Assembly: GCA_038884755.1 (NCBI GenBank)
Contig: JAWABJ010000001.1
Coordinates: 251,378-315,377 of the forward strand
Reading direction: 5' to 3'
Length of the DNA: 64,000 nt
Source of the DNA: Candidatus Norongarragalinales archaeon
Lineage (GTDB): Archaea; Micrarchaeota; Micrarchaeia; Norongarragalinales; Norongarragalinaceae
Below, piece by piece: positions 20,714-47,796 of the stretch. The first letter of the stretch is position 1, and each line of letters opens with the position of its first letter. Under the pieces are notes generated by a model. The model was not told the DNA's origin and ran no database searches. It saw only the letters and a list, made by a program, of their open reading frames with translations. The position numbers and the translations under genes were made by a program.

Positions 20714-20787
20714 AGTCAGAAGCTACCTCGGTCATCACAAGTCAGACTGGGACGGTGTCATCACGAAATAGGATTTGTGCAAAGCGC

Positions 20788-20796
20788 TTTTATTAA
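20788..20796 (+). promoter_or_regulatory. candidate TATA box (TTTTATTAA) for the RelA/SpoT-like gene
   Basis: About 35 nt upstream of the ATG at 20829, which supports that start over the track start at 20775. Confidence 0.35.
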
Positions 20797-20828
20797 GATT
20801 GAGTTCAATTGTTTTTATAGCTGGTTTA

Positions 20829-26938: not shown

Positions 26939-28267
26939 ATGCGCCGCATTCGCCTTGCGCGGGATTTGGGTTTTTGGGATTCCGTGCTTTTGGGCATAGG
27001 CTTTATAGTAGGCTCGGGAATTTTCATAATGCCCGTAGTCGCGGCGCAGACTGCAGGCTCTTGGTCTATTTTCGCTTGGTTTGCCGCGGGATTGTACACC
27101 ATACTTACTGGATTGTGCTTCGCGGAGTTGGCGGTGCGCAGTCCAAAAGCAGGCGGGTTGTACGCGTATGCTCACGATGTTTTCGGGGATTTCCTCGGCT
27201 TTTTCACCGGCTACTCGTTTTGGTTGGGGTATTGGATTACTATTGCAGTGGAAATGCTCGCGTTGGCGTGGTATTTGAGTTTTTTCACGGGCCTTTCGTT
27301 CGAACTGCGCCTTGCTATTGCCGTTTTCATCGGGTTCGTTTTCACGCTAATAAACTACAAGGGCGTGAGGCTGGGAAGCAGCACTGAAGACGTTCTTACC
27401 GTAGGAAAACTCGTTCCACTGGGAATTCTTGTAGTCGCTGGCTTGGCTTCGTTCAACCCCAGCGTTTTTTCCGCAGGCTTCGCAGCCGTGAATGCTGGAC
27501 ACATCGCTTTAGCATTCCTTTCTTCGTTCATTCTCGTGCTGTGGGCTTTTCAAGGAGTGGAAATAATAACCGTTCCGCAAGAGGAAATCAAGAACGCCAA
27601 GAAAACCGTGCCTAAAGCCATAATCGTTTCAGTCTTGAGCGTAATGGCTTTGTACCTGCTCATTGCGCTTGTCGTGCTGGGCAGCGTGGACTGGAAGAAT
27701 TTCGCCGCTTCGGAATCAGCGTTGGCCGACATAAGCGAAGTTTTGATAGGAGGTTGGGGCGGGGCGCTTTTGGCAATAGGCGGCTTGGTTTCGATCCTCG
27801 GTGCTTTGAATGCGGTAATCCTCGCTTCCGCACGCATAAGCTTTGCAATGGCTCGAGACGGGCTTTTCCCGAGGCTTTTCGAGCACTTGCACGGCAGGCA
27901 TGCGACGCCCGACTACGCCTTGATTTTGCAGTTTGTTTTCGCTGCTTTGCTCGTGTGGTTGTACCGTGACTTCATTTTCTTGGCTTCGCTTGCGGTGTTC
28001 TTCACGCTCATACCTTGGTTTTTGAGCTGCCTGGCTGCGTGGAGAGTGCAATTGCGGGAGCACAAGCACAGCATTCTCAACCACGTCGCTGTCCCGACTC
28101 TCGCGACGGTTTTCACTGCCCTTCTCATAGTATACCTGCTTCCACAATACTGGCCGTTCGCCTTGCTGAGCGGAATCCTTGGTTTGGCTTACTTTTCAGT
28201 CAAAAAACGAGAGCACAGAACGCGCTTTCACGTGCGGGGGGAGGAAAGCAAAACGCTCAAGCCCTAA
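26939..28267 (+). CDS. APC-superfamily amino acid permease
   Basis: 442 aa, about 12 TM, N-terminal GSGIFIMP motif. TATA-like TTTTTTAAAC lies about 28 nt upstream. Confidence 0.85.
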   Translation: MRRIRLARDLGFWDSVLLGIGFIVGSGIFIMPVVAAQTAGSWSIFAWFAAGLYTILTGLCFAELAVRSPKAGGLYAYAHDVFGDFLGFFTGYSFWLGYWITIAVEMLALAWYLSFFTGLSFELRLAIAVFIGFVFTLINYKGVRLGSSTEDVLTVGKLVPLGILVVAGLASFNPSVFSAGFAAVNAGHIALAFLSSFILVLWAFQGVEIITVPQEEIKNAKKTVPKAIIVSVLSVMALYLLIALVVLGSVDWKNFAASESALADISEVLIGGWGGALLAIGGLVSILGALNAVILASARISFAMARDGLFPRLFEHLHGRHATPDYALILQFVFAALLVWLYRDFIFLASLAVFFTLIPWFLSCLAAWRVQLREHKHSILNHVAVPTLATVFTALLIVYLLPQYWPFALLSGILGLAYFSVKKREHRTRFHVRGEESKTLKP

Positions 28268-29183
28268 ACCGCAAAGGAAATTTTGAAGCGTGAAAGCCGA
28301 TTTTTTCCCAAACCCTTTCCGGTGTCAAAGCCTTTAGTTCTTGAACGAGGCTTTCATCTTCCAAGTCTTTGTAGCCCAAAGGCACGTCCACGCCGTCTAT
28401 GCGCTTTCCGTCTTTCGAAACGTGCAGCGAGAACGGCGCACGGCATAGTTTTCCAGAAGGCGTTTGTGAAGGGTCGAGCACGAGCATTCGGTTTTTTTTC
28501 TCGTGCCCTCCGCTAACTTTGAACGAAACTTGCTTTTGCACTTCGGCCGCCCATTTGCCTGTGAACGTAGAGAGAGGATTTTTCTCTGAATACTGCACTG
28601 TCTTCGCATAATCGCTTGCCGGCATTTGCTTTTGCAAAAGCAAGAAAACGTGGAACGAACTTCCAGTCCAGCAAACCAGCAAATCGTGTTTTAGTGGAAA
28701 GTCTTTGTCGTCTTGAATTGCGTTCACGAAATGCAATGCTGCTTGTTGCGCCTGTTCTTGCGTAATCCCCTCGCCCCTGTCTAAATCAAAGAAAATTCGT
28801 TCGATGGGCTTGCCTGGGTTCTCGTTGTTCGTGGCGTAAAGCAATTCGCTTAGCTTTCGCGGAACGAAATAACGCCACGCGAGTTCTTGTTTTTTCGAAA
28901 GCCAGCCGGTTTTTCTGACGTCCGCCAAATGCCCTTTGCGCAATTCGAGAAGCTCGGAGGTTATAACGCTTTCGTCGGCCAGGTTTTCAACCCACAGCGG
29001 CGGCAGTTCGCTGCCGCGCTTGAGCAAAGGGCGGTATGACGGAATCCAGTTTTTGGCCGCGAGTTCTTTTCCCTTCAAAAACTTGCGGAGTTTGCGGGCG
29101 ACGAGCGAATAGTAAAGCAATACGTCCAAATCGCCGTAAGGCTCTAGAAGGCTTTTCGAAGCGAGCTTTTCAAGCTTGTTCAC
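28257..29183 (-). CDS. archaeo-eukaryotic primase (AEP) superfamily protein, LigD-polymerase-domain-like
   Basis: 308 aa. Motif I DxD (IFFDLDRGEG), motif II (CWTGSSFHVFL), motif III (LVLDPSQTPSGKLCRAPFSLHV). The N-terminal YYSLVARKLRKFLKGKEL resembles the LigD-Pol N-terminus. Confidence 0.6.
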   Translation of the reverse strand: MNKLEKLASKSLLEPYGDLDVLLYYSLVARKLRKFLKGKELAAKNWIPSYRPLLKRGSELPPLWVENLADESVITSELLELRKGHLADVRKTGWLSKKQELAWRYFVPRKLSELLYATNNENPGKPIERIFFDLDRGEGITQEQAQQAALHFVNAIQDDKDFPLKHDLLVCWTGSSFHVFLLLQKQMPASDYAKTVQYSEKNPLSTFTGKWAAEVQKQVSFKVSGGHEKKNRMLVLDPSQTPSGKLCRAPFSLHVSKDGKRIDGVDVPLGYKDLEDESLVQELKALTPERVWEKIGFHASKFPLRFRA

Positions 29184-29201: not shown

Positions 29202-31241
29202 TCAAATTAAAAGCAGCGAGTTGGCGACTATCGCGCTTGCGAAGACCAGCGAAACGGTATTGACGACTTTAATCAACGCGTTGAGCGAAGGGCCGGCAGT
29301 GTCTTTGAACGGGTCTCCCACAGTGTCGCCTACGACTGCGGCTTTGTGCGCGTCGCTTCCCTTGCCGCCGTAGGCTCCTTCTTCAATATACTTTTTCGAG
29401 TTATCCCAAGCCGCTCCGCTGGTTGTCATGAAAATCGCGAGCAAAAAGCCCGATGCGATTGCCCCTGCAAGAAACCCGCCTAAAGCTTGCGCTCCGAACA
29501 AAAACCCTATGGTTAAGGGAGTAAACACAGCAATCGCGCCGGGAACCATCAACTCGCGCAAAGCGCTTGCAGTGGCTATATCCACCGCCTTCGCGTAATC
29601 TGGTTTGGCTTTTCCAGCCATCAGGCTCTTGATTTGCCTGAATTGCCTTCGCACTTCCTCGACGATTTCAAACGCAGCTTTTCCTACTGCTTTCATCAAG
29701 AACGAAGAGAACACGAAAGGCATCAACGCGCCGATGAACAAGCCTACGACAACAGACGGGTTGAGAAGGTTTATTGCTGCAACGCCGGTTGACTCGGCGA
29801 AAGCCGCGAACAACGCTAATGCACCGAGGGCAGCGCCTGCAATCGCAAATCCCTTCGTTGTCGCTTTCGTAGTATTTCCAACAGCATCCAACGGGTCTGT
29901 CACGCGCCTTACGCTTGGCGGCATTCCGCTCATTTCAGCAATTCCGCCAGCGTTATCCGTGATGGGACCGTAAGCGTCTAGGGTGATGATTATGCCAGTA
30001 AGCGAAAGCATTGTCGTAGCCGCCAACGCCACGAGGTAAACTCCCATTGCAGGGTTGCCGCCGCCGAGCGAATAGGACAAGGCGATTGCCGAGACTATGA
30101 CCAACGCAGGCAAGGCGGTGCTTTCTAGGCCCACGGCCAGCCCTTGGATCAAGTTCGTTCCCGCACCGGTTTTAGCCGCAATCGCGATTTCCTTGACTGG
30201 CCTGTATTCCTTTGCCGTGTAGTATTCCGTAATCAAGCCTATGAGCATCGTTACGGCAACGCCGATGAGCGAAGCGTAGAACAACTGCGTGTTGTTTTGC
30301 GTGAAAAACCAAAACCCGATTATTGCAAAAACAGCCGTCGCAATAACCCCTTTGTACAGCGCGTGCATGATGTTTTTGCTTTTGCCTAGGGAAACAAACC
30401 ATACGCCCAACGCCGAAGCAATCGCTCCAACCGCGCCTATCAAAAGCGGGAGAGTGACGTAATCGGGGCCTAACGCGACGCCCAAAAGCATGGAAGCGAT
30501 TATCGTAACAGTGTAAGATTCGAACAAATCTGCAGCCATTCCGGCGCAGTCGCCAACGTTGTCCCCGACGTTGTCGGCGATGACCGCGGGATTGCGCGGG
30601 TCGTCTTCGGGAATGCCTTTCTCGACTTTCCCGACCAAATCCGCCCCAACGTCCGCGGCTTTAGTGTATATGCCGCCGCCAACCCTTGCGAACAGCGAAA
30701 TGAGCGAAGCTCCGAATCCGAAGCCGATCAAAACCGCCAGGTCTTTGAAGAGGACGTATATTCCTGCAACGCCTATAAGCCCCAACCCTACGAGCGCCAT
30801 TCCCGTGACGCTTCCGCCTTTCACTGCGACGTTCAACGCCTTGTCAAGGCCTTGTTCGGCAGCTTGTGCCGCGCGCACGTTGGCGCGCACGCTTACCATC
30901 ATTCCTATATACCCTGCTAGAGCAGATGCGATTACTCCGACGAAAAACGCTATTGCCGCGTTCCATCCTGAGAAAAAGCCTATCAACGCGAACAAAACCA
31001 CGACGAAAAACACTAGCGTTTTGTATTGCCTGAAGAGGTAGGCTTGCGCGCCTTCCTGGATGGCGGAAGCGATTTCCTGCATTTTGCGGTTGCCGGCGTT
31101 CTGCTGCAAAACCCACCAAACCAAGTACGCGGCAAAAAGAAGGACTATCACTCCTGCTGCCAAAGCGATTTCCAAAACCACTCTAAACCACCCCAAGAAT
31201 TCCCCCGCATAGCGTGAGAAAAGAACAATATATAATTGCAT
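29202..31241 (-). CDS. hppA: membrane-bound proton-translocating pyrophosphatase, K+-independent type
   Basis: 679 aa with GGIYTKAADVGADLVGK and DNVGDNVGDCAGM. The GNTTKA motif has Lys rather than Ala, which marks K+-independent enzymes. Confidence 0.92.
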   Translation of the reverse strand: MQLYIVLFSRYAGEFLGWFRVVLEIALAAGVIVLLFAAYLVWWVLQQNAGNRKMQEIASAIQEGAQAYLFRQYKTLVFFVVVLFALIGFFSGWNAAIAFFVGVIASALAGYIGMMVSVRANVRAAQAAEQGLDKALNVAVKGGSVTGMALVGLGLIGVAGIYVLFKDLAVLIGFGFGASLISLFARVGGGIYTKAADVGADLVGKVEKGIPEDDPRNPAVIADNVGDNVGDCAGMAADLFESYTVTIIASMLLGVALGPDYVTLPLLIGAVGAIASALGVWFVSLGKSKNIMHALYKGVIATAVFAIIGFWFFTQNNTQLFYASLIGVAVTMLIGLITEYYTAKEYRPVKEIAIAAKTGAGTNLIQGLAVGLESTALPALVIVSAIALSYSLGGGNPAMGVYLVALAATTMLSLTGIIITLDAYGPITDNAGGIAEMSGMPPSVRRVTDPLDAVGNTTKATTKGFAIAGAALGALALFAAFAESTGVAAINLLNPSVVVGLFIGALMPFVFSSFLMKAVGKAAFEIVEEVRRQFRQIKSLMAGKAKPDYAKAVDIATASALRELMVPGAIAVFTPLTIGFLFGAQALGGFLAGAIASGFLLAIFMTTSGAAWDNSKKYIEEGAYGGKGSDAHKAAVVGDTVGDPFKDTAGPSLNALIKVVNTVSLVFASAIVANSLLLI

Positions 31242-31288
31242 TTCGTCTTTTAAACTTGATATTCGAGTTTGAATCAGGGTGAAATAAA

Positions 31289-32140
31289 GTGAATTTTGCC
31301 GACCAGCTTATAAAAACCGTTGAAAAAAAGAATTCGCGCGTTTGCGTCGGGCTCGATCCTGTTTTCGAAGTCTTGCCCTCGCAATTTCGCTCTTTCCCGG
31401 ACAAAGGCAAGGCCGTTTTCGAATTCAACAAGCGCATCATACACGAAGTGAAGGGGCATTGCGTTTGCGTCAAGCCTAACCTAGCGTTCTATCTTGCGTT
31501 GGGCGAAGGCGGGTGGACTGCGTTGAAAAAAACGGTCGATTGCGCGAAAAGCGAAGGGCTTCTCGTAGTCTTGGACGCTAAGGCGAACGACATAGGAAAT
31601 ACGGCGCAGGCTTACGCCGACGCTTTTTTCGACGGACTCAATGCCGACGCGGTTACGATAAACCCGTTTTTGGGGAGCGACGCTTTGTTGCCTTTCTTAA
31701 AGGATTGCGGGAGGGACAAGGGCGTTTTCGTTTTGGTCAAGACTTCCAACGATTCTTCAAGCGAATTCCAGGGTTTGAAAGTGAGCGAGAGGAAAACTTT
31801 GAGTGAAGAAATCGCACGAAAGGTTGTCGAGTGGGAGGAGTACGGTTTGGGAAGCGAAGGGTACTCGAGCATAGGCGCTGTCGTGGGCGCGACTTTTCCC
31901 GAGCAGGCGAAGAAACTGCGCAGGATAATGAAAAAACAGTTTTTTCTCGTTCCCGGCTACGGCGCGCAAGGCGCGAGCGCGAAAAGCGTCAAAAACTTTT
32001 TCGACGACGAAGGTCTGGGGGCGATAGTGAATTCTTCCCGTGGTATAATCTACGCTTCGGGGGGAAGTGATTTCGCGGAAGCAGCGGACAAAGCCGCCGA
32101 GAAAATGAAGAACGAGATTAACGAGGCTTTGGGCGTTTAA
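31289..32140 (+). CDS. pyrF: orotidine-5'-phosphate decarboxylase, type 2
   Basis: 283 aa with VCVGLDP, VKPNLAFY and DAKANDIGNT motifs. Confidence 0.88.
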   Translation: MNFADQLIKTVEKKNSRVCVGLDPVFEVLPSQFRSFPDKGKAVFEFNKRIIHEVKGHCVCVKPNLAFYLALGEGGWTALKKTVDCAKSEGLLVVLDAKANDIGNTAQAYADAFFDGLNADAVTINPFLGSDALLPFLKDCGRDKGVFVLVKTSNDSSSEFQGLKVSERKTLSEEIARKVVEWEEYGLGSEGYSSIGAVVGATFPEQAKKLRRIMKKQFFLVPGYGAQGASAKSVKNFFDDEGLGAIVNSSRGIIYASGGSDFAEAADKAAEKMKNEINEALGV

Positions 32141-32145
32141 GCAAC

Positions 32146-33141
32146 GTGGTTTTTTTGAAGGAAATAGGCGATTTGCAGCATCCAGTCAAAGCTTGGACTG
32201 CTTTAACCAGGGTTATAGCACACTTGGGGGAAATTCCACAAGAGGATTACTTGCGTAGAAACTATCCCGTCTTGGCTGAAGCGGTTGATTACCACGGCGG
32301 TTTGCATTCTTTGGTCGAAGCAAACAAGCAAGATCTTTCAATTCTTTTGCAAAACGCCTCCGAGCGGCACGAAACTTCCTTGTTGCATTGGAGTCGTGCG
32401 ATGGACGGTAACGAGCACGCGCGGGAAAAGTTAGTTGGTCTTTACAAGCGGCAGGCGGAAAGACTGGCATCAAAGCTTTATTCTCACAAGCTCCGAGGGA
32501 CTTGGAAGGATTGGGTTAGAGTGGACGTTGAAGACTTGGTTCAAGAAGGGCTAGTTTCCCTTGTGCAAGCCCTTCCCCGATACGATCCTTCAAAATCCAA
32601 GTTTCCTAAGTTTGCCCACTTGGTGATGGAGGGCGCTATGAAGCACTACTTGCGCGATAAAGCGCAAGTAATCCGCAAGCCGGCATGGGTTCAAGAGCTT
32701 AGGTCTAAAATGTCCAAGGCTTTCTTCGACTACCAGTCTAGGCACGGCATGAAGCCTACTTTTGAGCAACTGGCAAAACAAGCGAACGTTCCCGTGGAGC
32801 ACGTGATAGAAGCTTTCACTCACTACCAGCCCGTTTCCTTGCAAGCGGCTTTAGATTTTGAAGGCACGGGAAAGGAAGGACGGTTTTTTCAGGAGCCGGC
32901 GGCCCGGGACGAGTTGGAGCCGCTTGCTTTGAAAATGATTTTCTACAAGGCTTTGCGTGACCACGTGAAACTGTCGAAAATGCAGGCTGTGGCGTTAGGC
33001 ATGTCTGCAGATGGGCATTCTCTCGAGGAGATTGCAACGCACTTAGGAGTTTCACCCGACTCTGCAGGGCAGTTGGTTTACCAGGCGAAAAAGAAAATAA
33101 GGGAAAACCTGCTGTTCAAGCGCGAGCTTGGTATAAACTGA
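32146..33141 (+). CDS. sigma-70 family RNA polymerase sigma factor homolog
   Basis: Region 1.2/2: GNEHAREKLVGLYKRQAERLASKL...VEDLVQEGLVSLVQALPRYDPSKSKFPKFAHLVMEGAMKHYLRD..IRKP. Region 3: KPTFEQLAKQANVPVEHV. Region 4 HTH: LSKMQAVALGMSADGHSLEEIATHLGVSPDSAGQLVYQAKKKIRENL. Confidence 0.75.
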   Translation: MVFLKEIGDLQHPVKAWTALTRVIAHLGEIPQEDYLRRNYPVLAEAVDYHGGLHSLVEANKQDLSILLQNASERHETSLLHWSRAMDGNEHAREKLVGLYKRQAERLASKLYSHKLRGTWKDWVRVDVEDLVQEGLVSLVQALPRYDPSKSKFPKFAHLVMEGAMKHYLRDKAQVIRKPAWVQELRSKMSKAFFDYQSRHGMKPTFEQLAKQANVPVEHVIEAFTHYQPVSLQAALDFEGTGKEGRFFQEPAARDELEPLALKMIFYKALRDHVKLSKMQAVALGMSADGHSLEEIATHLGVSPDSAGQLVYQAKKKIRENLLFKRELGIN

Positions 33142-33193
33142 AAACGCCTTTGAAGAAACGCTTGAAATATTTTCGTATAAAAAATTATTGTTT

Positions 33194-33871
33194 TTAAGCT
33201 TGTTTTGACTTTCTTTGCTTGTCTTCCTCTTCCTGCTTTCGCGAAAGCCTGCGTTTCGTAACTTTCAACGCAAAACGCAGTTCCGCCTCCAGAAGCGCGA
33301 GGTATTGAGAAATGTCTTTTATCGTTTGCTTTATGTCCGGCTGGATGTTGAACTCCAGCGCGTTGACTCGGCGGTTGGTTTTTTCGATTTCCTTCAACAA
33401 ACGCTTCAAAGCCGCTTCGGTCTGCGCGAGTTTTATCGCGTATTCAAGCGAAAGCTCGAAGTCGGAAACGGCTTCGTCGAACTTGGCGCTCGAGCCCACT
33501 ATGGGGTAGCCCCTTTGTTCCAAGCTCCTGTGCACGTACTCACCTTCTATCGCCGGAATCCTGACTCCCATGATGTTTTTGGTGTAAACGCTGATTTGAG
33601 GCGCGCGTTCCGACGCCAATGCCGCAGTCTGCAAAAACACGGTTCCATGAAAGGCTTCGGCGACGGCAAGACTCTTGTATGACTTTAAAACTTGGTTGTC
33701 CAACTGCGTGCGCAAGTCTTGCGCTTTCTTTATGATGGCGAAAAACTCGAGCACTAGCGCATCGCGCTTTTGCTTGAGAATCGTGTGCCCTTTCTGGGCC
33801 AGCGCGAGCTTTTGCTTTGTGTTAAGCAATTCCATTCGCGTCGGCTTGATGCCTTCCTTCATTTTTTTCAC
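33194..33871 (-). CDS. atpD: A-type ATP synthase subunit D
   Basis: 225 aa with TRMELLNTKQKLALAQKGHTILKQKRDALVLEF. Last gene of the atp operon. Confidence 0.9.
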   Translation of the reverse strand: MKKMKEGIKPTRMELLNTKQKLALAQKGHTILKQKRDALVLEFFAIIKKAQDLRTQLDNQVLKSYKSLAVAEAFHGTVFLQTAALASERAPQISVYTKNIMGVRIPAIEGEYVHRSLEQRGYPIVGSSAKFDEAVSDFELSLEYAIKLAQTEAALKRLLKEIEKTNRRVNALEFNIQPDIKQTIKDISQYLALLEAELRFALKVTKRRLSRKQEEEDKQRKSKQA

Positions 33872-33882
33872 TTTTGCAAAAA

Positions 33883-35262
33883 CTATTTCCGGTATTTCTT
33901 TCCGTACTTTTGCAGGTGCTCGGGTTTCACCCTCTTCAACTCGCCTTCCGGAATCATGGAAAGCAAATCCCAGCCTAGCTCGAGCGACTGTTCAATGGTT
34001 CGGTTTTCGTGGTATCCTTGCTGGACGAAACGCTTTTCGAAAGCGTCGGCGAAATTCAAGAATTTCTTGTCCCTTTCCGTCAGTGCTTCCTCGCCGACTA
34101 CCGCGACGAGGTTGCGCAAATCGCGTCCTTCGGCGTAGCCGGCGTAAAGCTGGTTGCTCACGCCCGAGTGGTCTTCTCGCGTGTGGCCCTCGCCAATGCC
34201 CAGGCTCATCAATCGCGACAGCGAAGGCAGGACGTCAATTGGAGGGTAGGTGTTCTTGCGGTGCAAATCACGACTCAACACTATTTGCCCTTCGGTAATA
34301 TAGCCAGTAAGGTCTGGAATTGGGTGGGTGATGTCTTCCTCGGGCATGGTGAGAATGGGGATTTGCGTTACCGTTCCTTTCTTTCCATGCACCGTTCCAG
34401 CGCGCTCGTAAAGAGACGCAAGGTCGGTGTACATGTAACCAGGGTATCCGCGTCGGCCGGGCACTTCCTGGCGCGCGGCGGCGATTTCTCGCAGTGCGTC
34501 GCAGTAGTTCGTCATATCCGTGAGAATAACGAGCACCTGCATTCCCTTCTCGAAAGCAAGGTATTCTGCAGTGGTTAGGGCAAGGCGCGGCGTGATGATT
34601 CTTTCGATGCTGGGGTCGTTAGCCAAATTCAAAAACAAAACGGCTTTTTCCAATGCTCCCGTTTTTTCGAAATCGCGCATGAAGAACTGTGCTTCGGCGT
34701 TGGTGATTCCCATTGCGGCGAACACCACTACGAACGATTCTTCCTTGCCCAACACTGTGGCTTGCCGTGCGATTTGCACTGCCAGTTCGTTGTGAGGCAA
34801 TCCTGCGGTGGAGAAAATCGGGAGTTTTTGTCCCCTGACGAGGGTGTTGAGCGCGTCAATAGTTGAAATGCCTGTTTGGATGAAGTCGTGCGGCTCTTGC
34901 CTTGAGTAAGGATTTATGGCCGCCCCGGTAACGTCAATTTTTTCTTTAGAAAGTATCGGTGAACCTCGGTCGATTGGCTCTCCGCTTCCGTTGAACACGC
35001 GCCCGAGCATTTCGCCGCTCACTGCCAATCGCAGGGTGTCTCCACTGAAGCGGATGCGCGTTTCTTTCGTGTCCAAGCCCGTAGTTACCCCGAATATTTG
35101 CACTGCGGCAAGCCCTTTAGACGATTCCAAAACTTGTCCTTTCTTGCGCTCGCCGTCGGGAAGGATTACTTCCACCGTTTCGTTGTAAGCAGCGTCGGCA
35201 ACGCCTTCGACTAAAACTATCGGCCCGAAAACTTCCCTTACGGTCTGGTATTCCTTAATCAT
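33883..35262 (-). CDS. atpB: A-type ATP synthase subunit B
   Basis: 459 aa, the non-catalytic B-subunit pattern, adjacent to atpA. Confidence 0.93.
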
Positions 35263-35274
35263 CCAAAACCACCT

Positions 35275-37008
35275 TTATTTTGCCATCAAGCTCTTGTCCA
35301 TCGAGTGCGTTATTTCAGCGCACTTTTTTTCTATCTCGTTTTCAGGAACGCGCTTCAACTGCGCGATAGCTTCCTTTTCTTTTATGCCTACGATTTTGTC
35401 GTAAGGCATTTCGCCCGCCAGTGCAACCGCCGCCTTGTCGTAATAATGCAAAATCAGTTTGAGCATCAAATACTGTTTTTTGAGGCTGTTTGACGCGTCG
35501 ACGGGGTCGAACGCGAATTGCTGCAGGAAGTCTTCGCGAATCATTTTCGCTGCATCCAAAACCAAGCGTTCTTTTTCGGGAATTGCGTCTGGCCCGATCA
35601 ACTGCACGATGTTCTGGAGTTCGGCTTCCTTTTGCAGGAGCTCCATCGCCCTCATGCGTACGGACGAAAAGTCTTGCGAAACTTTTTCCGCGTACCATTC
35701 TTCGAAGTACGGGAGGTATAGCGAGTAGGATTTCAGCCAGTTGATTGCCGGAAAATGACGGCGTCTTGCCAGCGAAGCGTCGAGGGCCCAGAACGATTTC
35801 GTGATGCGCAGCGTGCCTTGGGAAACTGGCTCGCTGATGTCTCCTCCCGGCGGGGAAACAGCGCCTACGACCGTGACGCTTCCCTCGCGGTTTTTCGAGC
35901 CTATGCACTCGACGCGCCCGGAACGTTCGTAAAACTCTGCGAGTTTTCTGGAAAGATATGCAGGATATCCTTCTTCTCCCGGCATTTCTTCCAGGCGCCC
36001 TCCTATTTCCCTCAAGGCTTCAGCCCAACGCGACGTCGAGTCGGCCATGAGCGCGACATCGAAGCCCATGTCGCGGAAGTATTCCGCAATCGTGATGCCC
36101 GTGTAAATGCTGGCTTCGCGCGCTGCGACAGGCATGTTTGAAGTGTTTGCTATAAGCACGGTTCGTTCCATCAACGGCCTTCCTGTCGTAGGGTCTTCGA
36201 GTTTGGGAAACGTGGCGAGCACTTCGGTCATTTCGTTTCCACGTTCGCCGCACCCCACGTAAACCACGATTTGCGCTTTCGCAAATTTGGCGAGCGATTG
36301 CTGCGTGACGGTCTTTCCGCTTCCGAACGGGCCGGGAATGGCCGCGGCCCCGCCCATCGCGACTGGAAAGAATGTGTCGATGATGCGCATTCCCGTTACA
36401 AGCGGTTGGTCGAAGGGCTTTTTGCTCTTGAATGGTCGCGCAACGCGCACGGGCCACTTTTGCATCATGCTGATTTTCTTTCCGCCAACGATTGCGATAG
36501 TTTCTTCGACAGTGTGCTTTCCGTCCTTTATTTCCTCGATTTTCCCTTCGACGCTCGGAGGCACTAGAATCTTGTGCACGATGTTTTTTTCCCGCACTTC
36601 GCCTATGCAGTCTCCGCCTTTCACGTGCTCTCCTTTTTTCGCCGTCGCCTTGAATTCCCATTTCGCTTTCCTGTCGATTGAAGGGATGTTTACGCCTCGG
36701 GCTATGAACACGCCCGTTTTCTCGCGGATGACGTCCAGCGGGCGTTGGGTTCCGTCGAAAATTCCCGCGAGCAAGCCCGGGCCTAATTCCAATTCAAGTT
36801 GTGAGCCTGTTCCTTCGACCTTGTCGCCTGGCTTGAGGCCTGAAGTTTCCTCGTAAACTTGTATCGAAGCGCGGTCTTCCTTCAAGGCGATTATTTCGCC
36901 GATTAGTTCTTGCTTTCCGACTTTCACGACTTCGTTGATTTGGCTTCCTCGCATTCCACTGGCGATGATAAGCGGCCCAGAAATTTTTGCAATTTCACCC
37001 ATTTTCAA
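35275..37008 (-). CDS. atpA: A-type ATP synthase catalytic subunit A
   Basis: 577 aa with P-loop GPFGSGKTV. No intein-sized insertion. Confidence 0.95.
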
Positions 37009-37026
37009 AACTCACCTTTTTTTTTT

Positions 37027-37344
37027 TCATTTTTCAGCTAAGTCAACGCCAATCGCGCGTTTTACCATCGCGCTTATGCTTTCCCCGCCGGCTTGCGTCT
37101 TCCCGCTTTTTCCTGGGATTGAAATCACTATGGGCTTGGTGCTGGCTTCCAATCGTTTTTTGGTTTTAAGCGCAAGGAAGGGAATCAGGTCTTCGTCCAA
37201 AATCACCAGCCCCACTTTCTCGTCGTCCATGAGCGCGTTGAGCTTCGAGTCGGCGTTTTGAGAATCGCATTCTGCCGTAATGCGTATTCCGGCAAGCTTA
37301 TACCCCACTAGCACTTCAGGAAAGCCGACTGCCGCAATCTCCAT
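37027..37344 (-). CDS. atpF: A-type ATP synthase subunit F
   Basis: 105 aa, assigned by operon position and the VGFPEVLVGYKLAGI pattern. Confidence 0.85.
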   Translation of the reverse strand: MEIAAVGFPEVLVGYKLAGIRITAECDSQNADSKLNALMDDEKVGLVILDEDLIPFLALKTKKRLEASTKPIVISIPGKSGKTQAGGESISAMVKRAIGVDLAEK

Positions 37345-37362
37345 TTTCTTTCACACAACCTT

Positions 37363-38370
37363 TCAAGCGTTTATCGCGAAAACGTACTGGCCTATTTCGC
37401 CCGTCAGGTCGAAGGCGTTGGCGTAGGCTATCTTGCGCAAGTTTGAAACTTCGACGCCCTTGAGGAAAACGAACCCGACGATGGTTGCGAAGTCCATGAC
37501 GCTTCTTTTCGACAATGCAAGCATTTTCGAGACCGTTTTCCTTTCCAGCGCGATTTCGAACAGTGGAAGCGACTGTTTGGCCTTCGCCGTTTCTTCCGTG
37601 CTAAGGCCGAAAGCTTCGACCACTTCCTTCAGCGCCGCGTCGTAGTCCTGCGCTTGCAGCATTCGCGCGACGAGCGCGTTTTTGTAGGAAACTTGTTCCT
37701 CCGCGTTCTTGACACCTTCCTTTTTCAGCCTCAGCACGGCCATGGCGTTTTCCAGGGCAAGCTGCTGCCCGATTATTTTTGCGGTAAGCGGGTCTGCTTT
37801 CGCGGCGAGCGTTTGCAACTGTCTTGCCCTCTCGCCTTCAATCTCACGTATGGCCTGCTTCAAGTCCGGATTGCGTTTCGCCATTTCCCTGATTTTGTTC
37901 TTGAACCTGCGCGAGCCCCACTTGGAGGCGATCGCCTCGAGCGCTTCAGGCAGGGTTTTGGCGGTAAGGGCGGGCGCATAAATCCTTTCGTTCTTGCCGC
38001 CTAAAGCTAAAAGCTCTTCCCTCGCGGTTTCCATTCCCAGCGCTTTCTTTGAAAGTATGAGCTTGAAGTTTTGCGCGTCCCACTCGCAGGCTAGCGCAGA
38101 GAACAGCCGCCTTCCTTCGGAAGGGAGGACTTTCCCGACTTTCGCCATGGTTTTCGCCATGTTCGCGTGCAAAGCGACGTCTATCCTCTGCACGCCGGAA
38201 TAGCTTTTTGAGGCTTCCACCAAATCCTGCTTGTACGGCGTCTGCTCGAGGATTGCGGTGATTTCGTCCATGGTTTTCACTTGCATAAGCTCGCGGAAAG
38301 CGTTTTCGTCGAGTAGGTTGCTCCTCATTCCCTTGACGCGCGCGTTTGCGTAAGCGTAACTCAAGTCCAT
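37363..38370 (-). CDS. atpC: A-type ATP synthase subunit C
   Basis: The start MDLSYAYANARVKGMRS at 38370 is typical for subunit C. The track start at 38523 would overlap atpE. Confidence 0.85.
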   Translation of the reverse strand: MDLSYAYANARVKGMRSNLLDENAFRELMQVKTMDEITAILEQTPYKQDLVEASKSYSGVQRIDVALHANMAKTMAKVGKVLPSEGRRLFSALACEWDAQNFKLILSKKALGMETAREELLALGGKNERIYAPALTAKTLPEALEAIASKWGSRRFKNKIREMAKRNPDLKQAIREIEGERARQLQTLAAKADPLTAKIIGQQLALENAMAVLRLKKEGVKNAEEQVSYKNALVARMLQAQDYDAALKEVVEAFGLSTEETAKAKQSLPLFEIALERKTVSKMLALSKRSVMDFATIVGFVFLKGVEVSNLRKIAYANAFDLTGEIGQYVFAINA

Positions 38371-38377
38371 GCGTTTT

Positions 38378-39025
38378 TCACTTTCCTCTTTTCTTTTTCT
38401 CCCGCCCGCCGGATTTTGCCTCTCGCTTCGGGGCGGAAGGAGCGTGCTTCGCACGAGTTGCGAAAAGCCCTTCGAACGCCTTTTGCTTGATTTTCTCTTG
38501 ATGTTCTTCAAGCAAGGCTTCAAACGTGTTGTTTATTTGAATGCTTCCGTCGGCCTTGGCCGCAATCAAACCTCCAGCAGTGCTTATGGTTTCTGAAACG
38601 CGCCCGTGCTTCGAGCCGAGTTTCTTGTCGCGCGCGTTGGTTTTCAGCACGAATTCTTTTTCCCCTAGCGCGCGTATGGCCTGCTTTGCGAGCGAGTCGA
38701 AAATTTTTTCGTAAGCCTTGGTTTTGGAAAAGCTTTCCAACTCCCTTTTGACTTCGCCGAGCACGCTTTCGACTACCTCTTCTTTCGCTTCGCTTTCGAC
38801 GCGTTTTGCCTGCAGCAATGCTGATGCTTTTAGTTCCGCCGCAAGTTCTTTCGCCTGCGTTTCACCCAGTTTTTGTTTTTCGGCGACGATCGCCTTGGCT
38901 TTTTCCTTGGCTTCGCCGATAATCTTGTCTCGCTCGCGCTCGGCTTCGTCCAAAATCGCCTTGGCTTGCCTTTCGGCTTGCAAAAGCACCTCGTGTTTCA
39001 GTTTTTCCAAGCTCATGCCGTTCAC
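38378..39025 (-). CDS. atpE: A-type ATP synthase subunit E
   Basis: 215 aa with a long N-terminal charged helix. Assigned by operon position. Confidence 0.85.
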   Translation of the reverse strand: MNGMSLEKLKHEVLLQAERQAKAILDEAERERDKIIGEAKEKAKAIVAEKQKLGETQAKELAAELKASALLQAKRVESEAKEEVVESVLGEVKRELESFSKTKAYEKIFDSLAKQAIRALGEKEFVLKTNARDKKLGSKHGRVSETISTAGGLIAAKADGSIQINNTFEALLEEHQEKIKQKAFEGLFATRAKHAPSAPKREAKSGGREKKKRGK

Positions 39026-39067
39026 TTTCCCCCCCGTTCCTTCGTATGCCCGGGGGTGAGCCGTGAT

Positions 39068-39298
39068 TCAGCCGCCCATCTTTCCGAGCAGAAAGAACGC
39101 TATGACGAAACCAAGGATTACGATGGTTTCGGGCAAGGCGAGCATGATTAGCACCTGTCCTTCCTTGCCTTCTTTTTCGGCCATCAAGCCGAGTCCGGCG
39201 GCTCCGATGCTCGACTGCGCCAATCCCGTGCCCAACGCTGCCAGGCCTACTGCCAATCCGGCTCCGACGGCAATCAAGCCGGGTCCAAAGTCTACCAT
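39068..39298 (-). CDS. atpK: A-type ATP synthase proteolipid subunit K (c)
   Basis: 76 aa single hairpin with a Gly-rich helix 1 and the ion-binding carboxylate in LALPETIVILGF. Confidence 0.9.
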   Translation of the reverse strand: MVDFGPGLIAVGAGLAVGLAALGTGLAQSSIGAAGLGLMAEKEGKEGQVLIMLALPETIVILGFVIAFFLLGKMGG

Positions 39299-39354
39299 TT
39301 CGTTTTACACCTCTTTTTTTCGTTAGCTTAAAATACGCGTGACGCGAGAAAACC

Positions 39355-43921: not shown

Positions 43922-44956
43922 TTACCTCGTTATTTGGAACGATTGGACTTCGCTCAAGTGCTCTTTCGCCTTCCCGCTTTCAAAGTGCTTTCTCGCCGGC
44001 GCCACGAGACCGTCGACTTCTGAAGCTACGGCGTTTTTAAAGTCCGCAGGATGCAATTCGCCTTTGGCGAAAGCCTCTTCGACTTGGGCGTAGGAGGAAA
44101 ACTCAGCGTCCCCGCCGAACTTCACCGGCCTTTCCACCTTGAAAGAATCCTTGCACACGAAAATCAAGTCGCGAGCGTAAGCAAGAACTGCATTCCCTTC
44201 GACGGTTTTCTCGGGGCAGAACGCTTTCGACAGCTTTCTTTTTATCTCATCGTGCGAGTCGTGGATGAATATTGCCGAATCGGGCTTGCTCTTGCTCATC
44301 TTGATTTCCTCTCCCGAAAGCGAGGAAAGCAATTTGTGGTGCAATGCAACAGGCGCGATCCACCCCATTTTCGGGAATACCTCGCGTGCGAGCATGTGCA
44401 CTTTCCGCTGGTCCATTCCCGCGTGCGCAATGTCCGCGCCCAAAAACTTGATGTCGACGCTTTGCATGGACGGGTAGATGTACTTCGCAACGTCCAGCGT
44501 CTCGCTTTCACTGCGCCCGAGTATTTGCATGGTGCGCGTGGCGCGCGCAAGCGTGACGTGAGTGGAAAAGCGCAGGACGCTCTGCCAGTATTCGTCGTTG
44601 TGGCGGTAAAGCTCGGTGCCGCGCACGATTTTCGCCTTGGGGCAGTAAAAGCGGAATGCTTCCTCGTAGTATTTCGAGGCGCTTTGGATTTTTCCGATGT
44701 CGCCGCCTAGCTTGCCGTTGATTACGGAATGCCAGTCGGCAAGGAAAACGGTGGTCTCGACGCCGGCTTTGGAAAGGTTGTTTATCACGCTTCCGCTCAC
44801 GAGCAGGGAGCCCACGTGCAACAACCCGGATATTTCAAAACCAATGTAGTGCTTCGGGTGCGCGTTGGTTTCGAAAAGCTGCTTCAGCTCGTCTTGCGTG
44901 ACGACTTCTTGAACAGGCGGCTTGAGCGCGAGGTCGAGTTTCGAATGCAAGTCCAT
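43922..44956 (-). CDS. tyrS: tyrosine--tRNA ligase (long archaeal type)
   Basis: Class I motifs GFEISGLLHVGS (HIGH-like) and KMSKSKP, plus LADWHSVINGKLGGD, GMDQRKVHMLARE and a C-terminal GELHPADFK. Confidence 0.8.
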   Translation of the reverse strand: MDLHSKLDLALKPPVQEVVTQDELKQLFETNAHPKHYIGFEISGLLHVGSLLVSGSVINNLSKAGVETTVFLADWHSVINGKLGGDIGKIQSASKYYEEAFRFYCPKAKIVRGTELYRHNDEYWQSVLRFSTHVTLARATRTMQILGRSESETLDVAKYIYPSMQSVDIKFLGADIAHAGMDQRKVHMLAREVFPKMGWIAPVALHHKLLSSLSGEEIKMSKSKPDSAIFIHDSHDEIKRKLSKAFCPEKTVEGNAVLAYARDLIFVCKDSFKVERPVKFGGDAEFSSYAQVEEAFAKGELHPADFKNAVASEVDGLVAPARKHFESGKAKEHLSEVQSFQITR

Positions 44957-47791: not shown

Positions 47792-47796
47792 GTTAT

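What the first reader, a model, noticed from the sequence alone, without database searches (positions are those of the whole stretch)
32146..33141. Full-length bacterial-type sigma-70 family factor encoded between pyrF and the A-ATPase operon of an archaeon
The 331-aa ORF has recognisable sigma regions:
- Region 1.2/2: GNEHAREKLVGLYKRQAERLASKLY...VEDLVQEGLVSLVQALPRYDPSKSKFPKFAHLVMEGAMKHYLRDKAQVIRKP
- Region 3: KPTFEQLAKQANVPVEHVIEAF
- Region 4 HTH: LSKMQAVALGMSADGHSLEEIATHLGVSPDSAGQLVYQAKKKIRENL

The flanking genes are typical archaeal chromosome genes and the composition looks native. This argues against a contaminating bacterial fragment.

Archaea use TBP/TFB and have no bacterial core RNAP for sigma to bind, so the function is an open question. 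Possibilities include a repurposed DNA-binding regulator, interaction with a bacterial host or partner polymerase, or a relic.

From memory, sigma-like genes have been noted in some single-cell DPANN genomes. I cannot verify that here.

The ~85-aa N-terminal extension has no motif I recognise.
Basis: partly seen in the sequence, partly recalled or inferred. Interest (0 to 1): 0.7.

Follow-up and report, generated by a model that had tools for sequence, protein, structure and literature searches.

The report
Bacterial-type sigma factor in a Micrarchaeota archaeon
A tiny DPANN archaeon (Micrarchaeota) carries an intact, selectively maintained copy of a bacterial-type sigma transcription factor, although archaea have no bacterial RNA polymerase for it to bind. 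Such genes have been reported in DPANN archaea since 2013, so this is a well-documented new family rather than a new phenomenon.

Summary
Window 32146-33141 (+) encodes a 331-aa sigma-70 family protein. Sigma70_r2 scores 47 bits (cut-off 24) and TIGR02937 scores 73 bits (cut-off 43). It aligns end to end with the SigB/F/G model, and the AlphaFold model matches sigma factors in solved holoenzymes.

The context is archaeal: MCM, aIF5A, RIO1 and the A-ATPase operon, with close relatives labelled Micrarchaeota/Norongarragalinales. The gene is native. The contig is 714 kb. The order pyrF-sigma(-NUDIX), convergent with atpD, recurs in ten contigs from other assemblies. dN/dS is about 0.2. One close relative (L013) has the same block with pyrF abutting atpD and no sigma gene.

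Family-specific features:
- Only two 50%-identity clusters among about 15 billion proteins.
- An orphan helical N-terminal domain of about 89 aa.
- A 10-aa Trp/Arg insertion in the 2.1/2.2 loop.
- Conserved sigma-2 motifs (DLVQEG, HYLRD, PAWVQE).
- A sigma-4 recognition helix that lacks the usual basic and aromatic residues.

Function is untested. My inference is a domesticated sigma-derived regulator that acts through its sigma-2/3 module. Sigma-70 genes in DPANN archaea are already published (Rinke 2013; Castelle 2021), so I rate this a new variant of a known kind, of moderate interest.

The parts
31244..31257 (+). Putative archaeal BRE/TATA promoter (CGTCTTTTAAACTT, with TATA at 31248-31254) for the pyrF-sigma operon
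   Evidence: The motif is identical in the window and in L002, although the sigma proteins are only 58% identical. It lies about 35 nt upstream of the pyrF GTG. Promoter function is inferred, not shown.
31277..31282 (+). Shine-Dalgarno-like GGGTGA ahead of the pyrF start
   Evidence: Read from the sequence. The GGGTG core is conserved in L002.
31289..32140 (+). pyrF (orotidine-5'-phosphate decarboxylase), first gene of the operon
   Evidence: Pfam OMPdecase, 96.9 bits. It lies directly upstream of the sigma gene in L002, L003, L004, L005, L007, L008 and L009.
32146..33141 (+). Sigma-70 family gene, 331 aa (whole ORF including the stop codon)
   Evidence: dN/dS is 0.12-0.20.
32146..32412 (+). 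Residues 1-89: family-specific all-helical N-terminal domain (six helices; invariant H26-L27-G28, P31, Y35-L36, H50-G51-G52, H75)
   Evidence: It is conserved in all six family members and the model has pLDDT above 85 here. It has no Pfam hit at E<=10, no homologue outside the family, and no fold match in the PDB or BFVD.
32413..32697 (+). Residues 90-184: sigma-2 plus region 3.0 (DLVQEG at 130-135, F153/F156, HYLRD at 167-171, PAWVQE at 179-184)
   Evidence: Pfam Sigma70_r2. These residues are shared with the 148 nearest bacterial sigmas. This is the most conserved segment within the family.
32485..32514 (+). Residues 114-123 (HKLRGTWKDW): family-specific insertion in the loop between regions 2.1 and 2.2
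   Evidence: Eight of the ten columns are gaps in at least 96% of the 148 nearest bacterial sigmas. L116, R117 and W123 are invariant in the family, and W120 is present in five of six members.
32698..32823 (+). Residues 185-226: sigma-3
   Evidence: Pfam Sigma70_r3 at 20.4 bits, below its cut-off. Helices 180-200, 206-213 and 217-225 in the model. Aligned to sigma-3 of SigB and SigA.
32824..32910 (+). Residues 227-255: disordered linker, equivalent to region 3.2
   Evidence: pLDDT below 50. Its length varies: it is shorter by 10 aa in P0004 and by 13 aa in P0005.
32911..33111 (+). Residues 256-322: sigma-4 helix-turn-helix with a divergent recognition helix (SPDSAGQLVYQAKKKIR)
   Evidence: Pfam r4_2 at 23.3 bits and r4 at 17.8 bits, both below cut-off. 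It is covered by the full-length TIGR models. The bacterial consensus residues Y/H306, S308, R/Y/H309, R/K312 and R/Q313, and the aromatic pair at 287-288, are all replaced.
33142..33193 (.). Convergent intergenic spacer with oligo-T tracts on both strands (TTTT 33170-33173 and T5 33191-33195 on the + strand; A6 33179-33184, which reads as T6 on the - strand). Probable archaeal terminators.
   Evidence: Read from the sequence. Terminator function is inferred. In most relatives this position holds a NUDIX gene.
33194..33871 (-). atpD (A-ATPase subunit D), the conserved convergent neighbour
   Evidence: Pfam ATP-synt_D, 167.6 bits. It is 90-92% identical in L001, L002 and L007.

Best explanation
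SHOWN. The ORF encodes a genuine three-domain sigma-70 family protein of the group 3 type. It is nearest to SigB/SigF/SigG-like bacterial sigmas and to bacterial sigma-GGDEF fusions.

It is a resident gene of a narrow clade of Micrarchaeota (order Norongarragalinales, DPANN). It sits as the second gene of a pyrF-sigma(-NUDIX) unit, convergent with the A-ATPase operon. It is inherited vertically and kept under purifying selection, yet it evolves faster than every syntenic neighbour. A close relative (L013) has the same block without it.

The family added an orphan N-terminal helical domain of about 89 aa and a 10-aa Trp/Arg insertion in the 2.1/2.2 loop. It kept the sigma-2 and region 3.0 signature residues. 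It replaced the usual DNA-contacting and aromatic residues of sigma-4.

INFERRED.
- The gene came from a bacterium by horizontal transfer into the ancestor of this clade. Loss in L013 is the alternative to a later gain.
- It is transcribed with pyrF from an archaeal BRE/TATA promoter.
- It no longer works as a classical bacterial initiation factor. It is a domesticated sigma-derived regulator.
- Its conserved sigma-2/3 module binds promoter-like DNA and/or the clamp coiled-coil of the resident archaeal RNA polymerase. That coiled-coil is the universally conserved element which sigma-2 binds in bacteria.
- The new N-terminal domain and the insertion provide partner binding or autoinhibition.
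- The regulon is probably small and may include its own nucleotide-metabolism operon.

My confidence is about 0.9 for the identity and evolutionary part and about 0.3 for the mechanism.
For: Identity:
- Sigma70_r2 scores 47.4 bits against a cut-off of 24.
- TIGR02937 scores 73.1 bits against 42.9, and the protein aligns end to end with TIGR02980.
- 59 PDB sigma chains match; the best is sigma-B, 8x6g_H.
- The model matches sigma factors in holoenzymes with Foldseek probability 1.0.

Archaeal host:
- MCM, RIO1, SPP, aIF5A and the A-ATPase operon are in the window.
- Relatives are named Micrarchaeota and Norongarragalinales.

Native and vertically inherited:
- The contig is 714 kb.
- The same gene order occurs in L001-L010.
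- pyrF and sigma are 5 nt apart in the window, abut in L002, and overlap by 8 nt in L007.
- The TATA motif upstream of pyrF is conserved.

Selection:
- dN/dS is 0.20 at unsaturated dS (0.18), and 0.12-0.17 for the more distant pairs.
- The sigma proteins of the window and L007 are 45% identical, against 60-94% for seven neighbouring genes.

Narrow family:
- Only 2 representative clusters reach E<1e-30 in 1.84 billion representatives. All other hits score <=102 bits and cover only residues ~74-330 (mostly ~129-322), none reaching the first ~73 residues.

Conserved sigma-2 and changed sigma-4.

Orphan N-terminal domain.

Empty site in L013.
Against: - There is no expression, binding or regulon evidence of any kind. 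The mechanism is inference from conservation patterns.
- Only 64 kb of the genome could be read. I could not confirm that bacterial RNAP subunits and anti-sigma factors are absent, or that TBP and TFB are present.
- Conservation of DLVQEG and HYLRD would equally fit a protein that still binds a bacterial core enzyme.
- Q133 is N, and V132 is E, in the most divergent member (P0072), so even the core-binding motif is not invariant.
- Fast evolution and a variable 3.2 linker could mean partly relaxed constraint.
- The direction of the L013 difference (gain or loss) is unresolved, because the three lineages are nearly equidistant.
- The donor lineage is not identified. Four of the five organism-named hits are Armatimonadota, but identity is only about 25-30%.
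Confidence: 0.5

Rival explanations
1. It is an RNAP-independent DNA-binding regulator. The protein acts like an ordinary helix-turn-helix repressor or activator, using sigma-4 and/or sigma-2/3 to bind duplex DNA without touching any polymerase.
For: The HTH is present and its scaffold residues (EIA at 295-297, L300, G301, S303) are invariant. There is an invariant basic cluster, K315, K317 and R319. The operon link with nucleotide-metabolism genes (pyrF, NUDIX) suggests a local regulator.
Against: The recognition helix has lost the basic and aromatic residues that contact DNA in the nearest bacterial sigmas. The strongest conservation is in sigma-2 regions 2.2-2.4 and 3.0, including the core-binding DLVQEG motif, which a simple HTH regulator would not need.
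Confidence: 0.2
2. It is a true sigma factor that works with a bacterial-type RNA polymerase, either one encoded elsewhere in this genome or that of a bacterial partner cell.
For: Residues conserved in bacterial sigma-2 for core binding and promoter melting are largely kept. All three domains and a 3.2-type linker are present.
Against: Nothing bacterial-RNAP-like, and no anti-sigma or STAS gene, was found in the 64-kb window. The published DPANN survey found the archaeal factors TBP, TFB and TFE and no anti-sigma factors (PMC8204110). The putative hosts cited for Micrarchaeota in PMC12892359 are archaea, and Norongarragalinales may be host-independent. I noted no export signal in the sequence, but none was searched for. 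The aromatic pair in sigma-4.1 and the recognition-helix residues are replaced.
Confidence: 0.05
3. It is a decaying relic of an old transfer with no present function.
For: It is the fastest-evolving gene in its syntenic block. The linker length is variable. It is absent from a close relative. Its GC3 is the lowest of the 12 genes compared.
Against: The reading frame is intact and full-length in all six family proteins (window, P0002-P0005, P0072), in every contig whose gene was translated, and in the full-length matches in L008 and L009. dN/dS is 0.12-0.20. 88 residues are invariant across proteins only 45% identical, concentrated in the functional motifs. Translational coupling to pyrF is conserved.
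Confidence: 0.05
4. It is cargo of a virus, provirus or other mobile element. DPANN viruses with rpoS-like genes have been reported.
For: PMC12647753 reports rpoS-like sigma genes on DPANN viral and prophage contigs. There is presence/absence polymorphism between close relatives.
Against: No relative was found in 2.9 million viral contigs. No integrase, repeat or viral gene lies next to it. Its position between pyrF and atpD is fixed across lineages whose sigma proteins differ by 55%. The N-terminal domain has no match among viral structures.
Confidence: 0.04
5. It is an assembly or binning artefact, that is, a bacterial fragment joined to archaeal DNA.
For: None beyond the bacterial affinity of the protein itself.
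Against: The contig is 714 kb. The same archaeal neighbours occur in ten contigs from ENA, Logan, JGI and GTDB assemblies. The tetranucleotide signature is within the window's range. No bacterial sigma is more than about 40% identical even locally, or about 30% over most of its length.
Confidence: 0.01

Closest known systems
Bacterial group 3 sigma factors of the SigB/SigF/SigG type (NCBIfam TIGR02980; solved example: S. aureus sigma-B in 8x6g)
   Same: The sigma-2, sigma-3, linker, sigma-4 architecture is the same, and region 1.1 is absent. They share the signature G-x-(I/M)-(K/R)-H-Y-L-R-D-K...P-x-W-x-Q-E and the DLVQEG motif. TIGR02980 is the best-scoring NCBIfam model and 8x6g_H is the best PDB sequence match.
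   Different: It scores 76 bits against a cut-off of 234, so it is not a member. It has an extra 89-aa N-terminal domain and a 10-aa insertion in the 2.1/2.2 loop. The sigma-4 recognition helix and the aromatic pair in 4.1 are replaced. No RsbW/SpoIIAB-type anti-sigma or STAS partner is nearby. The host is an archaeon.
Bacterial sigma-GGDEF fusion proteins and related stand-alone sigmas (nearest sequences, e.g. P0006-P0012 and P0073-P0081; the named one is from Armatimonadota)
   Same: These are the highest-scoring non-family relatives (84-102 bits). They share HYLRDK..II.EPAW.QEL almost exactly.
   Different: Identity is only about 25-33% over sigma-2 to sigma-4. They lack the N-terminal domain and the insertion. 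Many carry a C-terminal GGDEF domain (PF00990) that the archaeal protein lacks. They score 158-179 bits on TIGR02980 against 76-79 for the archaeal family.
Sigma-70 genes previously reported in DPANN archaea (Rinke et al. 2013; Castelle et al. 2021, family fam00359, prevalent in Woesearchaeota)
   Same: It is the same phenomenon: sigma-70 family genes on confidently archaeal DPANN contigs, with no anti-sigma factor found and function unknown.
   Different: Those reports emphasise Woesearchaeota and single-cell genomes of other DPANN phyla. The two Micrarchaeota/Norongarragalinales genome papers I checked do not mention a sigma factor. An exhaustive profile search finds no full-length relative outside this small family, so it may be a separate acquisition.
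rpoS-like sigma genes on DPANN viruses and prophages (PMC12647753)
   Same: They are sigma-family genes associated with DPANN archaea and divergent from known sigmas.
   Different: This gene is chromosomal, syntenic across lineages and not near viral genes. No relative was found in the viral contig collection.
Archaeal TFB / eukaryotic TFIIB (functional analogue, not a sequence relative)
   Same: From general knowledge, sigma and TFB occupy topologically similar positions on their polymerases (clamp coiled-coil, dock, RNA exit and active-site cleft). A sigma-derived protein could therefore in principle contact the archaeal enzyme.
   Different: No sequence or fold similarity was detected here. 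The protein is clearly of the sigma-70 family. Any contact with archaeal RNAP is untested.

Membership tests
Sigma-70 family (superfamily level) | Sigma-2 domain (region 2) detected above the curated threshold | tested here: met
   PF04542 scores 47.4 bits against 24. TIGR02937 scores 73.1 bits against 42.9, covering the full model length.
Sigma-70 family (superfamily level) | Sigma-4 helix-turn-helix domain | tested here: inconclusive
   PF08281 scores 23.3 against 25.7 and PF04545 scores 17.8 against 24.1, both below cut-off. However, the full-length models align through residue 322, the helices are predicted, and the scaffold residues EIA, L, G and S are conserved. DNA-contact residues are replaced.
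Sigma-70 family (superfamily level) | Three-dimensional fold of sigma domains as in solved holoenzymes | tested here: met
   All of the top 50 Foldseek PDB hits listed are sigma factors, at probability 1.00, with a best E-value of 5e-8. The model has a mean pLDDT of 79.
Sigma-70 family (superfamily level) | Binds bacterial core RNA polymerase and directs promoter-specific initiation | not testable with these tools
   This needs biochemistry. Only residue conservation (DLVQEG, F153/F156, HYLRD) could be examined.
SigB/SigF/SigG subfamily (TIGR02980) | Score at or above the curated subfamily cut-off | tested here: not met
   76.2 bits against a cut-off of 234.35. P0072 scores 79 bits.
SigB/SigF/SigG subfamily (TIGR02980) | Partner-switching anti-sigma kinase (RsbW/SpoIIAB) and STAS antagonist encoded nearby | tested here: not met
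   None was found among the ORFs of the 64-kb window that I scanned, nor in relatives' contigs. The rest of the genome could not be searched.
Group 1/2 (primary-like) sigma factors | Regions 1.1 and 1.2 (PF03979, PF00140) | tested here: not met
   Neither profile hits at E<=0.1. The N-terminal 89 aa match nothing.
Group 4 (ECF) sigma factors | Two-domain architecture without sigma-3 | tested here: not met
   A sigma-3 segment is present: PF04539 at residues 185-250, below its cut-off, three helices in the model, and alignment to sigma-3 of SigA and SigB.
DPANN archaeal sigma-70-like genes (Rinke 2013; Castelle 2021) | Sigma-70 family gene on a contig whose other genes are archaeal (DPANN) | tested here: met
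DPANN archaeal sigma-70-like genes (Rinke 2013; Castelle 2021) | Sequence relatedness to the published DPANN sigma family (fam00359) | not tested
   The published sequences were not obtainable. Indirectly, no full-length relative exists outside the six-member family.

The most novel reading that the evidence does not exclude
A bacterial sigma factor has been re-tooled to work on an archaeal (eukaryote-like) RNA polymerase. Its conserved sigma-2 surface, with the lineage-specific Trp/Arg insertion beside it and the new N-terminal domain, would dock on the Rpo1 clamp coiled-coil. There it would compete or cooperate with TFE, Spt5 or TFB to reprogramme initiation at a set of promoters. This would be the first cross-domain transplant of a core initiation factor. 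It might be part of an imported bacterial-style circuit, together with the RelA/SpoT-family gene 11 kb away and the NUDIX gene that follows sigma in relatives.
Probability: 0.15. Interest if true: 0.9.

Novelty: new variant of a known kind. Interest (0 to 1): 0.5.

Why it matters
Sigma factors and TBP/TFB are the textbook dividing line between bacterial and archaeal/eukaryotic transcription initiation. Sigma-70 genes in DPANN archaea have been recorded since 2013, but I found no tested function for them in the held literature.

This locus is a clean case for such a test:
- It is a small, well-bounded family in a clearly native and syntenic position.
- There is measurable purifying selection.
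- An empty-site relative exists for comparison.
- The pattern of retained residues (sigma-2 and region 3.0) and rewritten residues (sigma-4, plus two lineage-specific additions) says where to look for the new partner.

If the protein contacts the archaeal polymerase, that would show that a core initiation factor can cross the domain boundary. It would also bear on the proposed deep relationship between sigma and TFB/TFIIB. If it is merely a DNA-binding regulator, it is an example of domain recycling after horizontal transfer into a lineage (Norongarragalinales) whose genome is already thought to have expanded by HGT (PMC12892359).

Tried and rejected
- **N-terminal motif as a homing-endonuclease-associated repeat.** I suspected that HLGxxPxxxYLxxxxPxLxxAxxxHGG was such a repeat. 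No Pfam hit appeared even at E<=10, and there was no fold match in the PDB or BFVD. Rejected.
- **Homologues of the N-terminal domain alone.** The search returned only a truncated family member, P0221.
- **Viral origin.** No relative was found in the viral contigs.
- **P0061 as a possible DPANN sigma.** It looked AT-rich, but its neighbours are bacterial (MlaE, a bacterial-type prepilin peptidase). Rejected.
- **Named archaeal sigmas outside the family.** None turned up in the profile search. Cluster look-ups of the nearest hits gave almost no names.
- **Published sequences.** Rinke 2013 is not held. The held supplements of Castelle 2021 contain neither fam00359 nor "sigma".
- **RNA features.** No tRNA or Rfam match anywhere in the window.
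- **Sigma-70-type promoter scan around the locus.** 2 sites against 1.1 expected, which is uninformative.
- **Anti-sigma or STAS genes.** None among the large or gap ORFs of the window.
- **Phylogeny.** I did not build a tree. No ML tool or named reference set was at hand, and the long archaeal branch would make a neighbour-joining placement unreliable.
- **Failed scripts.** One search failed on a file-layout error and one search returned no answer. Both were rerun.
Full report
**1. The observation**

Window 32146-33141 (+) is an open reading frame of 331 codons. It starts at a GTG, 5 nt after the stop codon of the upstream gene.

Pfam gives these results:
- Sigma70_r2 scores 47.4 bits (cut-off 24, E 1.7e-12, residues 100-173).
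- Sigma70_r3 scores 20.4 (cut-off 25.3).
- Sigma70_r4_2 scores 23.3 (cut-off 25.7).
- Sigma70_r4 scores 17.8 (cut-off 24.1).

The last three fall at the expected places but are below threshold.

Full-length models settle the matter. NCBIfam TIGR02937, the sigma-70 superfamily model, scores 73.1 bits against a cut-off of 42.9 and is matched over all 165 positions. The SigB/F/G model TIGR02980 aligns residues 90-322 to positions 2-226 of 227. It scores only 76 bits against a cut-off of 234, so this is resemblance and not membership.

phmmer against all PDB sequences returns 59 distinct sigma chains. The best is S. aureus sigma-B (8x6g_H, E 2e-11, residues 87-320).

An AlphaFold2 model built on a 59-sequence alignment has a mean pLDDT of 79. 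The only long disordered stretch is the linker at 227-255. All of the top 50 Foldseek hits listed from the PDB are sigma factors, nearly all of them in holoenzyme or initiation complexes, at probability 1.00.

**2. The host is an archaeon and the gene is native**

The 64-kb window encodes the following:
- MCM (698-2779)
- aIF5A (97-498)
- a presenilin-type signal-peptide peptidase (3841-4656)
- RIO1 kinase (5546-6349)
- an H+-pyrophosphatase (29202-31241)
- pyrF (31289-32140)
- a complete A-type ATPase operon, subunits D, B, A, F, C, E, K and I (33194-41250, minus strand)

The exact sigma protein is recorded on a contig of 714,187 bp.

A cluster mate of the window's atpB, at 90% identity or more, is named [quoted passage not shown]. 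The only species-representative genome that holds a close sigma relative is titled "Candidatus Norongarragalinales archaeon", an order of the Micrarchaeia.

Composition is close to native. The tetranucleotide correlation of the gene with the whole window is 0.744. All 996-bp windows give a mean of 0.824 with SD 0.078, which puts the gene at the 9.5th percentile. Its GC3 is 0.55 against 0.61-0.70 for eleven other genes. That is slightly atypical but not an outlier.

**3. Synteny and inheritance**

Relatives of the gene were recovered on ten other contigs from ENA, Logan, JGI and GTDB assemblies (L001-L010).
- Wherever enough flank exists, the order is H+-PPase (divergent), then pyrF, sigma and usually a NUDIX hydrolase gene, then the convergent atpD-atpB-atpA genes.
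- The most divergent member (P0072 on L007, 45% identical) sits in exactly this block, with pyrF and sigma overlapping by 8 nt.
- In L002 the two genes abut. In the window they are 5 nt apart.
- The 47-bp region upstream of pyrF carries CGTCTTTTAAACTT, identical in the window and L002, followed by a GGGTG Shine-Dalgarno-like motif.

I read this as an archaeal BRE/TATA promoter driving a pyrF-sigma transcript. That is inference.

The spacer between the sigma and atpD stop codons holds oligo-T runs on both strands. This fits archaeal terminators, again as inference.

**4. Selection**

Nei-Gojobori estimates give dN/dS = 0.20 for the one unsaturated pair (L001 against L002, dS 0.18). The more distant pairs give 0.12-0.17, and there dS is saturated.

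Between the window and L007 the sigma proteins are 45% identical. The neighbours are 94% (atpB), 92% (atpD), 85% (atpA), 82% (PPase), 74% (atpF), 69% (pyrF) and 60% (atpC) identical.

The gene is thus constrained, but it is the fastest-evolving member of its block.

**5. An empty site**

A Micrarchaeota MAG contig (L013; GCA_043805205.1) carries the same block, from the JAB-domain gene through TyrRS/TrpRS, AdoHcy hydrolase and the ATPase operon to pyrF and the PPase. In it the 3' end of atpD abuts the 3' end of pyrF with a 7-bp spacer. Neither sigma nor NUDIX is present. tblastn finds no remnant; the best E-value is 0.047.

By four ATPase genes L013 is slightly more distant from the window and from L007 than those two are from each other. 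By PPase and pyrF the three are about equidistant.

The simplest reading is a gain at the base of the sigma-bearing clade. Loss in L013 is not excluded.

**6. How isolated the family is**

I ran a filter-only HMMER search, using the family profile, against 1.84 billion representatives of about 15 billion proteins.
- 12,282 proteins reach E<=0.001.
- Only two clusters reach E<1e-30: P0004 (628 bits) and P0072 (353 bits). Both are full-length.
- Every other hit scores 102 bits or less and aligns only from about residue 74-129 onward to about 330 (most start at ~129); none reaches the first ~73 residues.

The nearest non-family proteins are bacterial. Many are 410-470 aa sigma-GGDEF fusions (PF00990). 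Four of the five organism-named hits in the first search are Armatimonadota.

These bacterial proteins score 158-179 bits on the SigB/F/G model, against 76-79 bits for the archaeal family. The archaeal proteins are therefore a strongly diverged offshoot of group 3-like sigmas.

No relative was found among 2.9 million viral contigs. No archaeon-named protein outside the family appeared in the profile searches.

**7. What was kept and what was changed**

I aligned the six family members with the 148 nearest bacterial sigmas.

Kept: most positions that are strongly conserved in bacteria:
- D130, Q133 (five of six members), E134 and G135. These form the DLVQEG motif, which corresponds to E. coli sigma-70 D403-G408, the region 2.2 core-binding segment. 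That correspondence comes from my reading of the collinear SigA alignment plus general knowledge.
- D147-P148, F153, F156 (Y in most bacteria) and A157.
- H167-Y168-L169-R170-D171, I176, P179, W181, Q183 and E184.
- P204, and the HTH scaffold E295-I296-A297, L300, G301 and S303.

Within the family, residues 130-184 hold about half of their positions invariant, against 27% for the whole protein.

Changed, in three ways:
- (a) Residues 1-89 form a six-helix domain that is conserved in all members and is predicted with pLDDT of roughly 85-97 in the two models. It has no Pfam hit at E<=10, no homologue outside the family, and no structural match in the PDB (best E = 5) or BFVD.
- (b) Residues 114-123 (HKLRGTWKDW) are an insertion in the loop between regions 2.1 and 2.2. 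Eight of the ten columns are gaps in at least 96% of the bacterial sequences. L116, R117 and W123 are invariant in the family.
- (c) In sigma-4, the aromatic pair of region 4.1 (F/Y-F/Y in bacteria) is S-A. The recognition helix reads S-(P/Y)-(D/A)-(S/A)-A-G-(Q/S)-x-V-Y-Q-A-K-K-K-I-R, where the bacteria have S-x-x-(Y/H)-V-S-(R/Y/H)-L-L-(R/K)-(R/Q). Only the most divergent member, P0072, keeps S-R at positions 308-309.

In addition, the 3.2-type linker is shorter by 10 and 13 residues in two members.

**8. Mechanism**

Nothing here measures function, so what follows is inference.

The conservation pattern argues that the selected activity resides in the sigma-2 and region 3.0 module. In bacteria this module binds the beta-prime clamp coiled-coil and the -10 element. 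The sigma-4 domain appears to have been re-specified.

Archaea lack the bacterial core enzyme. Their RNAP does retain the clamp coiled-coil, which serves as the docking site for TFE and Spt5 (general knowledge).

My preferred model is a domesticated sigma-derived regulator. It would use sigma-2/3 to bind promoter-like DNA and/or the archaeal clamp. The new N-terminal domain and the insertion next to region 2.2 would serve as adaptations for partner binding or autoinhibition.

Rivals, in order of my confidence:
- a plain DNA-binding regulator (0.2)
- a real sigma for a bacterial-type polymerase (0.05)
- a decaying relic (0.05)
- mobile-element cargo (0.04)
- an assembly artefact (0.01)

**9. 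Comparison with the literature**

Rinke et al. 2013 are credited with first describing archaeal sigma factors (PMC6126073). The paper itself is not held.

Castelle et al. 2021 report sigma-70 genes (fam00359) in many DPANN genomes, especially Woesearchaeota. They ruled out mis-binning, found no anti-sigma factors, and called the controlling mechanism unclear (PMC8204110).

A 2025 study reports rpoS-like genes on DPANN viral and prophage contigs (PMC12647753).

Two genome papers on Micrarchaeota and Norongarragalinales do not mention sigma factors (PMC12892359 and PMC8561730). The first argues that this order expanded its gene content by horizontal transfer and may be host-independent.

The phenomenon is therefore known. 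What is new here is a separate, very small family in Micrarchaeota with its own domain additions, documented synteny, evidence of selection and an empty site.

**10. Verdict**

- Novelty: new variant of a known kind.
- Interest: 0.5. The biological question is real and long-standing, and this locus makes it testable, but a specialist would not be surprised that the gene exists.

Noticed in passing
window 20775-22376 (+): A 533-aa RelA/SpoT-family protein. Pfam RelA_SpoT scores 62.8 bits. TIGR00691 is matched over positions 129-452 only, so there is no evident HD hydrolase domain. It lies in a low-GC stretch (0.47) with an atypical tetranucleotide signature. This is a second bacterial-style regulatory gene in the same archaeal window. 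Together with the NUDIX gene that follows sigma in relatives, it hints at an imported alarmone circuit.
   Followed up: partly
L013 11680-13189, compared with window 31289-33871: A close Micrarchaeota relative has the same gene block, but atpD and pyrF are end to end (7-bp spacer), with no sigma and no NUDIX gene. This serves as an empty site for the insertion.
   Followed up: yes
L002 2093-2605; L007 7214-7795; L001 42-545: In most relatives a NUDIX hydrolase gene follows sigma (upstream of it in L001). It is absent from the window and from L010. The gene order pyrF-sigma-NUDIX suggests a link with nucleotide metabolism.
   Followed up: partly
window 9462-14978 (+), 15021-20678 (+), 50339-59461 (-), 59515-63897 (-): Four giant ORFs of 1838, 1885, 3040 and 1460 aa. 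Three have only CarboxypepD_reg, Big_1 or SpaA-type Ig-like domains, and the 1460-aa one has no Pfam hit. They are probably surface or adhesion proteins of the kind common in DPANN genomes, and they occupy about 38% of the window.
   Followed up: partly
window 44922-47332: The lowest-GC (0.446) and most atypical tetranucleotide region of the window. It holds a Prok-JAB domain ORF (44922-45380), two ORFs with no Pfam hit (45388-45903 and 45919-46950) and a DDE transposase fragment (46988-47242). It is probably a recently acquired island.
   Followed up: partly
P0006-P0012 and P0073-P0081 (bacterial proteins, not in the window): The nearest bacterial relatives include many sigma factors fused to a C-terminal GGDEF (diguanylate cyclase) domain, 410-470 aa long. 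This is an unusual architecture in its own right.
   Followed up: no
window 28257-29183 (-): A 308-aa ORF with a weak LigD primase-polymerase domain match (22.3 bits, below the cut-off of 27.4), lying between the amino-acid permease and the H+-PPase genes.
   Followed up: no
window 47797-49633 (-): A PLD-like domain protein (47797-48435) and a 407-aa protein with a SpoIIM domain (48410-49633), next to a GNAT acetyltransferase (47333-47839).
   Followed up: no
L007 2412-3003 and 7921-8477: Small PIN-domain and MazE-like genes (probable toxin-antitoxin modules) lie near the sigma locus in this relative. The MazE-like pair is inserted between NUDIX and atpD.
   Followed up: no
P0003, residue equivalent to window L131: P0003 reads DPVQEG, whereas the L001 copy (its GTDB near-twin) and all other members read DL(V/I/E)(Q/N)EG. 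This is either a real substitution in the core-binding motif or a sequencing error in one assembly.
   Followed up: no
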